DNA of 16,938 bases, taken from IMG/VR virus record IMGVR_UViG_3300028895_001083, one strand, 5' to 3'. This DNA comes from a virus (taxonomy: Duplodnaviria > Heunggongvirae > Uroviricota > Caudoviricetes). The position numbers were made by a program, and so were the translations under genes. Of the stretch, positions 119 to 2,142 are shown piece after piece. Numbering within the stretch: position 1 is the stretch's first letter; each line of letters begins with the position of its first letter. Under the pieces are notes generated by a model that saw only the letters and a program-made list of their open reading frames with translations, made no database searches and was not told the origin of the DNA.

Positions 119-698
119 ACTCGCAGGACTCATACCCGGTTACGTCCGCATCGTTGGGCTCGACCTGGGTACCAACTGCGGGGTTGCCTGGTGTGACGTG
201 GATCCCGAAAAGCCGATCGTCTGGGACGATATCCAGATGTACGCCGGCCAGCTTGACCTCGGACTCGGACCGTATGACACCGGTCCCGTCCGTCATATCC
301 GGCTCAAGCAGTTCATGGCCGTCATGCACCCAAGCTTTATTGGGTTCGAGGACGTCAAGAACACCCCCACCGTTAAAGGTTTCGGCGGGAAGAAGCTCGG
401 CATGATCATGGCCCGTGTGGCCACAGCCGCTGAGCTCCTGGGTGGTTTCAAGATCACCCTCTGCACCTGGGCCGAGGAGAACGAGGTGCCCTGCCAAGGG
501 TACGCCATCGGCACCATCAAGAAGTACGCTACCGGGAAAGGCAACGCTGGCAAGCCTGCGATGATCGCAGCCGCCAACGAGCGCTTCGGCGCTGACCTCG
601 ACCCCGACAACTACGAATCATCCGGCACGGACAACATCGCAGACGCGATGCACATCTGCGCCATGAGCGTTGAAGGATACGCCAAGGGGCTGGCTTGA
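72..698 (+). CDS. ruvC: RuvC-like Holliday junction resolvase (RNase H fold), phage type
   Basis: Motifs IVGLDLGTNCGVAW (Asp I), FEDV (Glu), IKKYATGKGNAGKPAMIAAA (RuvC IKK..TG.G.A.K motif) and DNIADAMHI (Asp III/IV) in the expected order. SD-like AGGTGA at 60-65. Confidence 0.88.
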   Translation: MAKAKQHKDPEILQSELAGLIPGYVRIVGLDLGTNCGVAWCDVDPEKPIVWDDIQMYAGQLDLGLGPYDTGPVRHIRLKQFMAVMHPSFIGFEDVKNTPTVKGFGGKKLGMIMARVATAAELLGGFKITLCTWAEENEVPCQGYAIGTIKKYATGKGNAGKPAMIAAANERFGADLDPDNYESSGTDNIADAMHICAMSVEGYAKGLA

Positions 699-737
699 GC
701 CCCAATCTTATTGCTGTGAATAAAATTGGAGGCTCTC

Positions 738-1460
738 TTGCCCGGCACAGCACTCTACATCGGCGCCATCATGCGTGCCGCCGGTGACGCGTCCACTTAC
801 ATGGGCCCGGTCCGTGTGCCTCGATCGATGTCGAAGGCCACGACCATCAATGCCCATATTGCCGAAGTCAATCAGCAGCGCCAGAATGATGCGGCTGCAC
901 CGCCGCAGGCGTACGCTGATTCGACGTTGGCCGGGGATCGCCGATACGAGAACCGTATCCAGCGGCCCGGCCTGGCCATGCTTACCAGCGTGATCATCCT
1001 CGATCGCAACGGCAACCAAGTCTACGCACAGGAGACCACAGGTCCCCAACTGCGTGGCAAGGTTGCCGTCCCGCTGCTGAGCTACTTGAAGGAAGCATAC
1101 CCGCATCAGTTCTCCGACAATCTGCGATACAGCGACGGCACGCCCGACGCCGCGATTTTCGGATTCAACATCAAACAGGTGCTTCGGATCGCTGCATTCG
1201 AAGTACTGAAGCGGAATCAAAGCGAAGATACAAAGATCCAGGTACCGGTGCGCATGTGGCACAATCCGATCGGGTGTTACGACCCGTACGATGTGCTGTT
1301 GCCCTCGCCTGACCAAAAGGATCTGGATATTTTCTCCTTGATGCGTTACTTCGGCATTGCCGAGGCATCGCCCGAAGAGCTGGCCACGAGTGCGCTCCTC
1401 CAGGCCCAGGTGGCCCGGGAGCTCGTCTTGGCAGCTCAGCTATTGCCGTTGGGGTCTTGA
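738..1460 (+). CDS. Hypothetical protein, probable catalytically inactive DEDD/PolB-type 3'-5' exonuclease homologue (240 aa)
   Basis: GGAGG at 728-732 favours TTG 738 over TTG 726. Segments LYIGAIM, IFGFNIKQVL, CYDPYDVL, LDIFSLMRYFGI and SALLQAQVARELV follow the ExoI/II/III layout but lack the acidic residues. Family call is by eye. Confidence 0.55.
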   Translation: MPGTALYIGAIMRAAGDASTYMGPVRVPRSMSKATTINAHIAEVNQQRQNDAAAPPQAYADSTLAGDRRYENRIQRPGLAMLTSVIILDRNGNQVYAQETTGPQLRGKVAVPLLSYLKEAYPHQFSDNLRYSDGTPDAAIFGFNIKQVLRIAAFEVLKRNQSEDTKIQVPVRMWHNPIGCYDPYDVLLPSPDQKDLDIFSLMRYFGIAEASPEELATSALLQAQVARELVLAAQLLPLGS

Positions 1461-1484
1461 CACACTGGCCAACCCGGAGGCCGG

Positions 1485-1590
1485 GCGCTCGTCGCGTAGT
1501 GGTTACGTCAGCGGGCTCATAACCCGCATGGCCGCTGCTGAAGTTATCGGATCTTCCCCAGCGGTGGGGTTCGACTCCCTAACGAGTGCT
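1485..1590 (+). tRNA. Non-canonical tRNA(-like) gene, anticodon CAT (Met/fMet-type anticodon arm), with 37-nt variable region; CCA not encoded
   Basis: Acceptor GCGCTCGT 1485-1492 / ACGAGTGC 1582-1589. D arm GCGT-AGTGGTT-ACGT 1494-1508. Anticodon arm GCGGG-CTCATAA-CCCGC 1511-1527. T arm TGGGG-TTCGACT-CCCTA 1565-1581. Confidence 0.75.
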
Positions 1591-1631
1591 TTGGATCGAC
1601 GGAAGTTACAGTGTAGTCAAGCCCGGGGAAG

Positions 1632-1672
1632 GAGGGGCGGGTCGCGGTATCCCCACGCCGCGGCCCGCCCTC
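1632..1672 (+). other. GC-rich stem-loop between the tRNA and the next RBS (possible weak terminator or processing site)
   Basis: 1635-1647 pairs with 1658-1670 (13 bp, one G-U), 10-nt loop, extendable by 2 bp past a bulge. Followed only by GTGTTTAC, so the U-tract is weak. Confidence 0.5.
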
Positions 1673-1701: not shown

Positions 1702-2142
1702 ATGTCTCGCATCGAATTACATCACTCCGTGATGGACATCTTTCAAGCGCTCGGCGAGGGTAATCCCGGCGCGCTGCGCGTCTGTATGGAGCTGATGCAA
1801 CAGTCCGCCAACATTGACCCGGACAGCGCCCTGGGCGGTATGGGACCGTTGCTGTCGCTCGACACGCTCGAGATCTACGGCCCCCGCATTTGGATGCTGT
1901 ACAAGGACGTGTGCGGCGAGGATCTGACGCTGACAATAGCGTTGCTTCGTGGCCACCAGCTTGGTATGCTATCATCCGCAGAGTTGAACCACGCCATCGA
2001 CAACCGTGGCGACGGCATCGACCCCGCGACGGTACTCGCGCTGGTGCAAGAAGAGCTGCCGGCGTTCGCTACACAAGGAGCGAAAGATGACGAAGTGCAA
2101 GAATCACAAAAGGTACAAGGGGATACACCCCCCGCGGTGTAA
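1702..2142 (+). CDS. Conserved-looking phage hypothetical protein (146 aa)
   Basis: AGGAG at 1690-1694 before ATG 1702, internal to track ORF 1357-2142 whose N-terminal part runs through the tRNA. EGNPGA and LDTLEIYGPRIWMLYKDVC resemble a motif pair I recall from phage hypothetical proteins; function unknown. Confidence 0.8.
   Translation: MSRIELHHSVMDIFQALGEGNPGALRVCMELMQQSANIDPDSALGGMGPLLSLDTLEIYGPRIWMLYKDVCGEDLTLTIALLRGHQLGMLSSAELNHAIDNRGDGIDPATVLALVQEELPAFATQGAKDDEVQESQKVQGDTPPAV

What the first reader, a model, noticed from the sequence alone, without database searches (positions are those of the whole stretch)
1485..1590. CAT-anticodon tRNA with Sec-like 8/5 architecture and a 37-nt structured variable region
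Seen: an 8-bp acceptor stem stacked on a 5-bp T stem; a 1-nt acceptor-D linker and a 2-nt D-anticodon linker; an anticodon arm GCGGG-CTCATAA-CCCGC with three consecutive G-C pairs next to the loop; and 37 nt (1528-1564) between the anticodon and T arms folding as CCGCTG/CAGCGG plus GAAG/CTTC. G-U pairs work only on the plus strand. Established: the three G-C pairs are the initiator tRNA hallmark; Met/fMet/Ile2 tRNAs have 4-5 nt variable loops and 7/5 stems; the 8/5 fold with a long variable arm is typical of bacterial tRNA-Sec; the C1:A72 mismatch needed for formylation is absent here. Inference: (a) a tRNA with a roughly 32-nt removable insertion (deleting 1533-1564 leaves a normal 5-nt variable loop), (b) a novel tRNA class or decoy that resists or titrates host anticodon nucleases targeting initiator tRNA, or (c) a decaying tRNA.
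Basis: partly seen in the sequence, partly recalled or inferred. Interest (0 to 1): 0.75.

Follow-up and report, generated by a model that had tools for sequence, protein, structure and literature searches.

The report
Conserved long-armed phage tRNA-like gene
A large phage carries a real, evolutionarily conserved tRNA-like gene with a methionine (CAU) anticodon, an oversized extra arm and a slightly too long acceptor/T helix; standard tRNA finders miss it, and it probably acts as a special or mimic initiator-type tRNA.

Summary
Window 1485-1590 (+) folds into a complete cloverleaf with a CAU anticodon, a GGG/CCC anticodon stem, a canonical T loop, an 8-bp acceptor and a 37-nt structured extra arm. 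ARAGORN and Rfam's curated thresholds miss it. The only sub-threshold family hit is tRNA-Sec (30.8 bits; cut-off 47). When the extra arm is shortened in silico, ARAGORN calls tRNA-Met.

The decisive evidence comes from positional orthologues, found through the flanking proteins in phages only 35-65 % identical at protein level (L391, L396, L398, L400). They keep the same plan through compensatory changes:
- 92 % of stem cells are paired, against 45-54 % in slid-partner controls.
- The extra-arm stem is paired in 35 of 35 cells.
- The CAU loop and a 13-layer acceptor/T domain are conserved.

The extra arm is therefore an integral, selected feature, not an intron, a mobile insertion or decay. 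The D arm, the outer T-stem pairs, the literal "8th pair" and the discriminator base are not conserved. Some relatives lack the element, and one (L399) lacks the arm.

The most likely reading is a functional non-canonical tRNA(CAU) or initiator-tRNA mimic. Its exact role (translation or decoy) is unresolved. Shorter-armed CAU tRNAs are common in phages, for example crAss001's "tRNA-Met". Novelty: a new variant of a known kind.

The parts
1485..1590 (+). tRNA-like gene (106 nt), anticodon CAU; no encoded CCA
   Evidence: MFE cloverleaf; all 33 pairs valid; Rfam tRNA-Sec 30.8 bits, full-length; ARAGORN calls tRNA-Met after arm trimming; conserved positional orthologues
1485..1492 (+). acceptor 5' strand; 1485-1491 is the conserved 7-bp helix, and T1492 pairs with A1582 as the '8th' layer
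   Evidence: the 7 outer pairs are paired in 34 of 35 cells across 5 orthologues, with compensatory changes at 6 of 7 positions; the 8th layer is a pair only in the window and L396
1494..1508 (+). D arm (4-5 bp; loop contains GG)
   Evidence: weak (2-5 bp) in orthologues
1511..1527 (+). anticodon arm: stem with three G-C pairs next to loop CTCATAA; anticodon CAT at 1518-1520
   Evidence: TCATA loop core invariant in all orthologues, two to three G-C pairs next to the loop kept
1528..1564 (+). extra (variable) arm: 6-7 bp stem 1531/1532-1537 with 1559-1564/1565, a 2x2 internal loop, a 4-bp helix 1540-1543/1553-1556 and a 9-nt loop; no spacer before the T stem
   Evidence: folds alone at -15.1 kcal/mol, z -2.4; stem paired in 35 of 35 cells over 5 orthologues with changes on both sides at 5 of 7 positions; no other copy in the genome
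1565..1581 (+). T arm: 5-bp stem (core GGG/CCC) and loop TTCGACT
   Evidence: the GGG/CCC core is invariant, the outer two pairs are kept only in the window and L396
1582..1590 (+). acceptor 3' strand (1582-1589) and discriminator T1590
   Evidence: all orthologues have 6 nt between the T loop and the 7-bp acceptor strand (13 layers); discriminator varies T/A/T/G/T
1452..1467 (+). 5' leader that pairs with the 3' trailer (1609-1624) around the cloverleaf
   Evidence: 181-nt fold, z -2.4, repeat I3
1609..1624 (+). 3' trailer segment pairing with the leader
1635..1670 (+). 13-bp GC-rich terminator-like hairpin after the element
   Evidence: I1; -38.7 kcal/mol, z -3.7; an equivalent hairpin follows the element in L391, L396 and L398
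726..1460 (+). orf244, the conserved upstream neighbour (stop codon 25 nt before the element)
   Evidence: syntenic homologues at 42-56 % identity; weak DEDD-exonuclease-like fold
1702..2142 (+). orf146, the downstream gene; an insertion relative to the syntenic relatives and not part of the conserved module
   Evidence: absent between the element and orf247 in L391; the only gene shared with L002-L022

Best explanation
Window 1485-1590 is a functional, selected, phage-encoded tRNA-like RNA gene. It is a non-canonical tRNA(CAU) in which the long extra arm and the 13-layer (Sec-like) acceptor/T domain are integral features. It is not an intron, a mobile insertion or a decaying gene. Inferred mechanism: it is transcribed at the end of the RuvC-orf244 operon and bounded by a terminator-like hairpin. 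Host RNase P and 3' trimming enzymes cut it out, and the host CCA-adding enzyme completes it. Its invariant U33-CAU-A37 loop and GGG/CCC stem present an initiator-tRNA-like anticodon arm to host factors, with MetRS (whose recognition is dominated by the CAU anticodon) the most obvious one. My rough split is about 45 % that it is charged and used as a special Met or initiator-type tRNA, about 30 % that it works as a mimic or decoy of initiator tRNA, and the rest other roles. Shown here: the structure, its conservation and the covariation. Inferred: transcription, processing, charging and role.
For: Structure. Independent assembly identical. Positional orthologues found by protein synteny rather than by RNA pattern: L391 lies between the orf244 and orf247 homologues (RuvC 65 %, orf244 43 %, orf247 51 %, orf521 55 %); L396, L398 and L400 lie upstream of orf247 homologues. 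Each folds on its own MFE into acceptor, D arm, CAU anticodon arm, long extra arm and T arm. Arm-wise count over the 5 orthologues: 115 of 125 cells paired (92 %) against 45-54 % with slid partners, and 16 of 25 pairs changed on both sides against 2-9. Extra-arm stem 35 of 35 cells paired; acceptor 34 of 35. Model-based alignment with L111 and L181: 92 % paired, 20 of 33 pairs changed on both sides, 0 of 500 shuffles as high. TCATA loop core invariant, and 6 nt between the T loop and the acceptor strand in all five. Rfam's tRNA-Sec model is the best family for the window, L398 and L396. A terminator-like hairpin follows the element in four lineages. Lack of encoded CCA is normal for this genome. 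The same architecture occurs in unrelated phages L111 and L181. Extra arms on phage CAU tRNAs are kept by compensatory change in a crAss-like family.
Against: There are no expression or processing data. The element is below the curated threshold of every family model and ARAGORN does not call it. In orthologues the D arm is weak (2-5 bp), the T stem is often only 3 bp, L400 has a non-consensus T loop (TGCAATT), and L391 has an A-C mismatch in the acceptor. This suggests relaxed tRNA constraints and casts doubt on ribosomal use. The discriminator base is not conserved (T, A, T, G, T), which argues against a fixed aaRS identity that depends on N73. The element is missing from three relatives (L397, L401, L395), and L399 lacks the arm, so it is dispensable. 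The genome already has two canonical CAU tRNAs. I curated the arm-wise alignment from each sequence's own fold, so it leans towards the structure. A model-free MAFFT plus RNAalifold attempt failed.
Confidence: 0.72

Rival explanations
1. It is a working translational tRNA in the ordinary sense: an extra supply of Met, initiator or, after lysidine modification, Ile2 (AUA) decoding for a phage whose codon usage differs from that of a GC-rich host. On this view the long arm is only a tolerated decoration.
For: CAU anticodon with U33 and A37; canonical T loop; GG in the D loop. ARAGORN calls tRNA-Met after trimming. The genome's other tRNAs (Glu-UUC, Gln-UUG) read A-ending codons, and AUA occurs 97 times in 94 sampled ORFs. 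87-nt long-armed 'tRNA-Met' genes exist in cultured crAss-like phages.
Against: A 13-layer acceptor/T domain is the geometry of tRNA-Sec, which established knowledge says EF-Tu handles poorly. There is no 1:72 mismatch for formylation. The arm is actively maintained, not merely tolerated. Weak D and T arms in orthologues would compromise the tRNA elbow. Two canonical CAU tRNAs are already present. No TilS, MetRS or formyltransferase was found in the held 62 % of the genome.
Confidence: 0.33
2. It is a tRNA mimic or decoy. Its stable initiator-like anticodon arm and Ser-type-oriented long arm would soak up or divert host tRNA-targeting defence enzymes, sparing the real tRNAs. Candidate enzymes are VapC-type nucleases that cut initiator tRNA and AbiEii/MenT-type nucleotidyltransferases that prefer long-armed tRNAs.
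For: The conserved parts are exactly the anticodon stem-loop, the acceptor helix and the long arm, while the elbow-forming D and T parts drift. There is no spacer between the arm and the T stem in the window or L391. PMC11541572 shows that tRNA-Met carrying a tRNA-Ser variable loop becomes a preferred MenT3 substrate, and that this spacer-less orientation is decisive. The element is redundant with canonical CAU tRNAs and dispensable in some lineages, as accessory counter-defence genes often are.
Against: There is no direct evidence. No defence system or host is known for this phage. The spacer length differs in other long-armed CAU tRNAs (4 nt in the crAss family). The decoy idea rests on an analogy from a mycobacterial toxin study.
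Confidence: 0.22
3. It is an RNA-processing or stability signal rather than an adaptor. On this view a tRNA-shaped structure at the 3' end of the RuvC-orf244 transcript recruits RNase P or blocks 3' exonucleases.
For: It always lies 25-45 nt after the orf244 stop codon and before a terminator-like hairpin. The leader and trailer pair around it. Its elbow features are loosely conserved.
Against: A processing signal would not need an invariant U33-CAU-A37 loop with a GGG/CCC stem, or a compensated 7-9 bp extra arm. Relatives without the element keep orf244.
Confidence: 0.1
4. It is a tRNA pseudogene, or a tRNA-Met gene disrupted by a 32-nt insertion (an intron-like or mobile hairpin), with no function of its own.
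For: Standard finders and curated thresholds reject it. Deleting 32 nt restores a callable tRNA-Met. L399 carries an arm-less version. Some orthologues have mismatches in the T and acceptor stems.
Against: 33 of 33 pairs are intact in the window. The arm stem is paired in 35 of 35 cells with wholly different sequences in lineages at 35-65 % protein identity. There is no second copy of the arm sequence, no bulge-helix-bulge motif (sequence), and no intron family hit. Bacteria have no known splicing route for a 32-nt variable-region insert (established knowledge).
Confidence: 0.08

Closest known systems
Bacterial tRNA-Sec (Rfam RF01852)
   Same: A 13-layer acceptor/T domain (8/5 in the window), a long extra arm, and an extended anticodon stem possible. 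It is the best-scoring Rfam family for the window, L398 and L396.
   Different: The anticodon is CAU, not UCA. The discriminator is U and variable, not G73. The D arm is 4-5 bp with a 5-7 nt loop, not 6 bp with a tetraloop. The extra arm is about 15 nt longer. Scores of 24-31 bits are below the 47-bit cut-off.
allo-tRNAs and other tRNA-Sec-like tRNAs (Mukai et al. 2017, PMC5389517)
   Same: Non-canonical cloverleaves with a longer acceptor stem, a long V arm and non-Ser anticodons. Some are found in phages, and some are thought not to be used in translation.
   Different: allo-tRNAs have a 12-bp 8/4 or 9/3 branch and a long D stem with a tetraloop. Here there are 13 layers and a weak D arm. 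No CAU member is mentioned in that paper's text.
Long-armed 'tRNA-Met' genes of phages, e.g. Bacteroides phage crAss001 crAss001_t23 (MH675552.1 5721-5807, 87 nt)
   Same: CAU anticodon plus a stem-forming extra arm on an otherwise class-I body. The arm is kept by compensatory change.
   Different: They have a canonical 7/5 branch, a roughly 20-nt arm with a 4-nt spacer before the T stem, and often a C1xA72 mismatch. ARAGORN calls them. There is no sequence or synteny relationship to the window's family.
Bacterial initiator tRNA-fMet
   Same: CAU anticodon, loop CUCAUAA, and three consecutive G-C pairs next to the loop.
   Different: G1-C72 is paired, so the formylation determinant is missing. 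The 11:24 pair is C-G, not A-U. It has 13 rather than 12 layers and a 37-nt rather than 5-nt variable region.
Elements L111 3009-3105 and L181 2688-2788 in unrelated phage contigs
   Same: 8-bp acceptor, GGG/CCC CAU anticodon arm, 27-30 nt extra arm and 4-5 bp T stem. They align full-length to my model at 41.9 and 38.5 bits.
   Different: There is no protein similarity between those contigs and this phage and the gene contexts differ. They are analogues or very distant kin. ARAGORN calls L111 as tRNA-Met.

Membership tests
Canonical bacterial tRNA (Rfam RF00005 / ARAGORN) | Reaches the family's curated score or is called by the default detector | tested here: not met
   No hit at gathering thresholds. 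ARAGORN finds nothing. The genome's canonical tRNAs score 53-63 bits.
Canonical bacterial tRNA (Rfam RF00005 / ARAGORN) | 7-nt anticodon loop with U33 and a purine at 37; T loop of the TTCRANY type; GG in the D loop | tested here: met
   Loop CTCATAA, T loop TTCGACT, D loop containing GTGG.
Canonical bacterial tRNA (Rfam RF00005 / ARAGORN) | 12-bp acceptor/T branch (7/5) and a variable region of 4-5 nt or a class-II arm of up to about 20 nt | tested here: not met
   8/5, or 8/4 with one unpaired nucleotide. 6 nt lie between the T loop and the acceptor strand in all orthologues. The variable region is 37 nt.
tRNA-Sec (RF01852) | Score of at least 47 bits | tested here: not met
   30.8 bits; orthologues score 30.1 and 24.2 bits.
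tRNA-Sec (RF01852) | UCA anticodon and G73 | tested here: not met
   The anticodon is CAT (1518-1520). The discriminator is T1590 and varies in orthologues.
tRNA-Sec (RF01852) | 13-bp acceptor/T domain and a long extra arm | tested here: met
tRNA-Sec (RF01852) | Sec machinery (SelA/SelB/SelD) in the genome or host | not tested
   The host is unknown and these families were not searched.
allo-tRNA (PMC5389517) | 12-bp branch arranged 8/4 or 9/3 | tested here: inconclusive
The MFE is 8/4 with A1581 unpaired. All orthologues keep 13 layers.
allo-tRNA (PMC5389517) | Long D stem with a tetraloop; long V arm; G73 or U73 | tested here: inconclusive
   V arm: yes. U73: in the window only (others A, U, G, U). 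D arm: 4-5 bp with a 5-7 nt loop, and 2-5 bp in orthologues.
Bacterial initiator tRNA | Three G-C pairs 29-31:39-41 | tested here: met
   1513-1515 pair with 1523-1525. Kept in L391 and L396, and shifted or weakened in L398 and L400.
Bacterial initiator tRNA | 1:72 mismatch (formylation determinant) | tested here: not met
   G1485-C1589 is paired. Position 1 is G-C or G-U in all orthologues.
Intron-containing tRNA (archaeal BHB or bacterial group I) | Bulge-helix-bulge motif at the insert borders, or a group I intron core | tested here: not met
   The arm is a 7-bp helix, a symmetric 2x2 loop, a 4-bp helix and a 9-nt loop. No intron family was hit. The arm is retained as a helix with different sequence in orthologues.

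The most novel reading that the evidence does not exclude
The element belongs to an undescribed family of phage-encoded initiator-tRNA mimics. An invariant CAU/GGG-CCC anticodon arm is mounted on a Sec-like 13-layer body with a Ser-type-oriented long arm. This molecule would serve not to decode but as a decoy or sponge against host tRNA-targeting defence enzymes: AbiEii/MenT-type nucleotidyltransferases that select long-armed tRNAs, or VapC-type nucleases that cut initiator tRNA.
Probability: 0.18. Interest if true: 0.85.

Novelty: new variant of a known kind. Interest (0 to 1): 0.62.

Why it matters
It shows that standard tRNA finders and Rfam miss a conserved family of tRNA-like genes in large phages. 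It also shows that an oversized extra arm on a CAU tRNA body can be a selected feature rather than damage. Together with the many shorter long-armed CAU tRNAs in phages, which are annotated simply as tRNA-Met, it points to an unexplored layer of phage tRNA biology. If the element is charged, it is a natural 13-layer Met-anticodon tRNA, of interest for initiation mechanisms and for engineering orthogonal tRNAs. If it is a decoy, it would be a new kind of RNA counter-defence against tRNA-targeting immunity. Either outcome can be tested directly with a 106-nt transcript.

Tried and rejected
- ARAGORN at relaxed thresholds and in intron mode gave only spurious alternative folds of the region (Phe, Gly, Ala, SeC).
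- The inverted-repeat leader/trailer and the arm sequence were tested as a mobile element: no second copy exists in the genome.
- L002-L022 were first treated as relatives and lacked the element. They share only orf146 and are not syntenic, so that absence is uninformative.
- Odd tRNA-like elements near orf146 homologues (L003, L009, L013, L017) are not homologous to the window's element.
- The metagenome and GTDB pattern scans were capped. They were dominated by ordinary tRNA-fMet genes followed by a second T arm (144 of 228) and by archaeal intron-bearing initiator tRNAs.
- MAFFT plus RNAalifold on the orthologues misaligned the stems and gave a meaningless consensus.
- Alignment A6 was contaminated by the window's minus strand and was not used.
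- One search used wrong minus-strand coordinates and is disregarded.
- No class-II aaRS core, MetRS, TilS, CCA-adding enzyme or formyltransferase was found in the held 62 % of the genome.
- orf146: a confident all-helical model with no PDB match by Foldseek or VIA-align (best Z 4.1) and no useful Atlas lead.
- Simple promoter and terminator consensus scans found nothing.
- Literature searches for long-armed tRNA-Met or initiator tRNAs in phages found no description.
- No match to the window's locus exists in the INPHARED phage collection.

Full report
**Setting.** The window is bases 114940-131877 of a 133.6-kb IMG/VR virus record that CheckV estimates at 62 % complete. A protein of the window also occurs on a 220-kb contig, so the phage genome is probably about 220 kb. 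Its GC content is 59 %. ARAGORN finds four canonical tRNAs elsewhere in the record: two with anticodon CAU, one Glu-UUC and one Gln-UUG. They score 53-63 bits on Rfam's tRNA model. The candidate is not among them.

**Observation.** ARAGORN finds nothing in the window and Rfam finds nothing at curated thresholds. A permissive Rfam scan aligns the tRNA-Sec model full-length (1-91) at 30.8 bits, E 2e-4, below its 47-bit cut-off, and this beats the general tRNA model.

The unconstrained MFE is a cloverleaf with a long extra arm (-45.8 kcal/mol, z -2.6). The extra arm folds on its own at -15.1 kcal/mol. Deleting 32 nt of the arm, or shortening it to 7 bp plus a tetraloop, makes ARAGORN call tRNA-Met(cat) at default settings. 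So only the arm's length hides the gene. The longest tRNA that ARAGORN called in about 400 fetched loci was 98 nt.

Three G-U pairs, and a score of 134.8 against 14.2 bits for the two strands, fix the orientation. CCA is not encoded, but none of this genome's tRNAs encodes it. An independent Logan assembly (L393, 99.95 % identical over 5.7 kb) carries the identical element, so it is not an assembly artefact.

**Is the arm an insertion?** The arm sequence has no second copy in the genome. It has no bulge-helix-bulge geometry, and no intron family is detected.

**Relatives.** My first set of "relatives" (L002-L022, found through the downstream 146-aa gene) lacks the element. These contigs share only that one gene, so their evidence is void.

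A search with the 521-aa downstream protein found one truly syntenic contig (L391, the same contig as L037):

| Gene | Identity to window |
|---|---|
| RuvC | 65 % |
| orf244 | 43 % |
| orf247 | 51 % |
| orf109 | 41 % |
| orf165 | 34 % |
| orf521 | 55 % |

A CAU tRNA-like element lies exactly between the orf244 and orf247 homologues. orf146 is absent there, so it is an insertion in the window's lineage.

Anchoring on orf244 and orf247 in the 5.8-billion-protein collection and fetching contigs gave further positional orthologues:
- L396 223-329 (36.9 bits on my model R1)
- L400 1885-1985 (17.7 bits)
- L398 280-380 (12.9 bits)
- L399 167-234 (12.0 bits; 68 nt, no extra arm)

L394 is cut 4 nt into the element but shares its leader. 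L397, L401 and L395 have no room for the element. ARAGORN calls none of these elements. Rfam's tRNA-Sec model is again the best family for L398 (30.1 bits) and L396 (24.2 bits).

**Covariation.** Each long-armed orthologue, folded alone, gives the same plan:
- acceptor of 6-8 bp
- weak D arm of 2-5 bp
- anticodon arm of 6-8 bp carrying CAU
- extra-arm stem of 7-9 bp with a 14-15 nt U-rich loop (in the window, an internal loop, 4 bp and a 9-nt loop)
- T arm of 3-5 bp

I aligned the five arm by arm. 115 of 125 stem cells form standard pairs (92 %), against 45-54 % when the 3' partner is slid by 1-3 nt. 16 of 25 pairs show changes on both sides, against 2-9 in the slid controls. The acceptor is paired in 34 of 35 cells with compensation at 6 of 7 positions. 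The extra-arm stem is paired in 35 of 35 cells with compensation at 5 of 7 positions.

A model-based alignment that also includes the analogues L111 and L181 gives 92 % paired, 20 of 33 pairs changed on both sides, and 0 of 500 shuffles as high.

Caveats: these alignments were built with knowledge of the structure; a sequence-only MAFFT plus RNAalifold run failed; and there are only five lineages.

**What is and is not conserved.**
- Conserved: the loop core U33-CAU-A37; two to three G-C pairs next to the loop; G at position 1; the GGG/CCC T-stem core; a 7-nt T loop; the extra arm abutting the T stem; and 6 nt, rather than the canonical 5, between the T loop and the 7-bp acceptor strand. The last point means a 13-layer acceptor/T domain.
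- Not conserved: the literal 8th pair (T-A in the window and L396, but G-G, T-T and G-A elsewhere); the two outer T-stem pairs; the D arm; the T-loop consensus in L400; and the discriminator (T, A, T, G, T).

The window's copy is the most canonical member of the family.

**Context.** The element starts 25 nt after the orf244 stop codon. Its leader (1452-1467) pairs with its trailer (1609-1624). A 13-bp GC-rich hairpin (1635-1670; -38.7 kcal/mol, z -3.7) follows. Equivalent hairpins follow the element in L391, L396 and L398. This looks like the end of a transcription unit. The held part of the genome encodes no class-II aaRS core, MetRS, TilS, CCA-adding enzyme or formyltransferase, so maturation and any charging would depend on the host.

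**Wider picture.** Pattern scans show that CAU tRNAs with stem-forming extra arms (87-95 nt) are common in viral contigs. One family occurs in cultured crAss-like phages, where it is annotated simply as tRNA-Met (crAss001_t23, 87 nt). Its arm shows three consecutive compensated pairs.

Very long arms on an initiator-type anticodon arm are rare. A complete IMG/VR scan gave 19 loci. Only L111 and L037 (the L391 contig) among them, plus L181 and L220 from the capped metagenome scan, align full-length to the model. L111 (a T7-like podovirus fragment) and L181 (a replication module) are unrelated to this phage yet share the 8-bp acceptor, GGG/CCC CAU arm and long-arm design.

I found no description of such tRNAs in the searchable literature. 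This includes the two key papers on non-canonical tRNAs (PMC5389517; PMC7609411).

**Interpretation.** The element is best explained as a selected, functional tRNA-like RNA in which the extra arm is integral. The invariant CAU loop means that something reading the anticodon matters. By established knowledge of MetRS identity, MetRS is the default candidate.

Several features argue that it is not just a spare Met tRNA: the paired 1:72 position, the 13-layer body, the drifting elbow elements, the variable discriminator, the presence of two canonical CAU tRNAs, and the element's dispensability in some lineages. These keep a mimic or decoy role open.

One concrete lead comes from PMC11541572. A tRNA-Met carrying a tRNA-Ser variable loop becomes a preferred substrate of MenT3, an AbiEii-family toxin, and the preference depends on a spacer-less arm orientation of the kind seen in the window and L391. 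This is analogy only and was not tested here.

**Verdict.** It is a new variant of known non-canonical tRNA kinds, of moderate to high interest.

Noticed in passing
L023-L138 (e.g. L031 7419-7507, L032 11554-11641, L026 5376-5462); L390 389-475: CAU-anticodon tRNAs of 87-95 nt with a stem-forming extra arm are common in IMG/VR phage contigs (at least 74 in a capped scan). Several have the C1xA72 initiator mismatch. One family occurs in cultured crAss-like phages, annotated simply as tRNA-Met (crAss001_t23). Its arm shows compensatory changes. I found no description in the searchable literature.
   Followed up: partly
all fetched loci: ARAGORN calls tRNAs of 85 nt or more for Asn, Cys, His, Ile(UAU), Asp, Gln, Lys and others in these phage loci. 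Extra arms on normally class-I tRNAs may be a general phage trait. The sample is biased towards loci chosen for CAU tRNAs.
   Followed up: no
window 1702-2142 (+): orf146 has a conserved EGNPGA motif. Its AlphaFold model is a confident all-helical fold (pLDDT 93) with no PDB match. It is the only gene shared with 21 otherwise unrelated phage contigs, and 6 of these have a tRNA or tRNA-like element within about 600 nt upstream. It is absent from the syntenic relative L391, so it behaves like a mobile single gene.
   Followed up: partly
window 726-1460 (+): orf244 has no Pfam or PHROG hit. Its model (pLDDT 86) gives weak but consistent Foldseek matches to DEDD-type 3'-5' exonucleases (ISG20L2, Pol III epsilon, RNase T, ExoI; best E 6e-3). 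I did not check the catalytic residues. It always lies directly upstream of the tRNA-like element when that element is present.
   Followed up: partly
L389 1523-1585 (own genome 51022-51084, outside the window): A 63-nt mini tRNA-like element (7-bp acceptor, one hairpin and a canonical T arm, with no anticodon arm) lies inside the phage's tRNA cluster. ARAGORN and Rfam do not call it.
   Followed up: no
L389 1180-1254 and 2120-2193 (own genome 50679-50753 and 51619-51692): The two canonical CAU tRNAs split the initiator hallmarks between them. One has a T1xT72 mismatch plus the GGG/CCC anticodon stem. The other has C1xA72 but no GGG/CCC. Counting the window's element, three of the genome's five tRNA-type genes carry CAU.
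   Followed up: no
L013 2792-2900; L009 4347-4454; L017 6095-6237; L003 about 2920-2972: Other uncalled tRNA-like elements have large internal insertions. L013 has an 11-bp acceptor-like stem plus a T arm. L009 has a 57-nt hairpin in place of the anticodon arm. L017 has a canonical D arm and a 78-nt insert before the T arm. None is homologous to the window's element.
   Followed up: partly
L139-L378 (metagenome and GTDB loci): 144 of 228 pattern hits are ordinary tRNA-fMet genes followed 20-45 nt later by a second T-arm-like hairpin, which could be remnants of integration sites. Another block (e.g. L196, L149, L289; Bathyarchaeota and other archaea) consists of initiator tRNAs with 34-36 nt inserts between the anticodon and T arms, consistent with archaeal non-canonical introns.
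   Followed up: no
L391 4921-4935; L396 279-293; L398 335-348; L400 1937-1951: The extra-arm loops of four orthologues are all 14-15 nt and U/G-rich (runs of T with GG or GTG). The window instead has an inner 4-bp helix with a 9-nt loop. The loop may be a binding site of its own.
   Followed up: no
window 546-987 (-): In intron mode ARAGORN reports a 'tRNA-Pro(cgg)' with a 349-nt intron here. It overlaps the RuvC-like and orf244 coding regions and is almost certainly a false positive.
   Followed up: no
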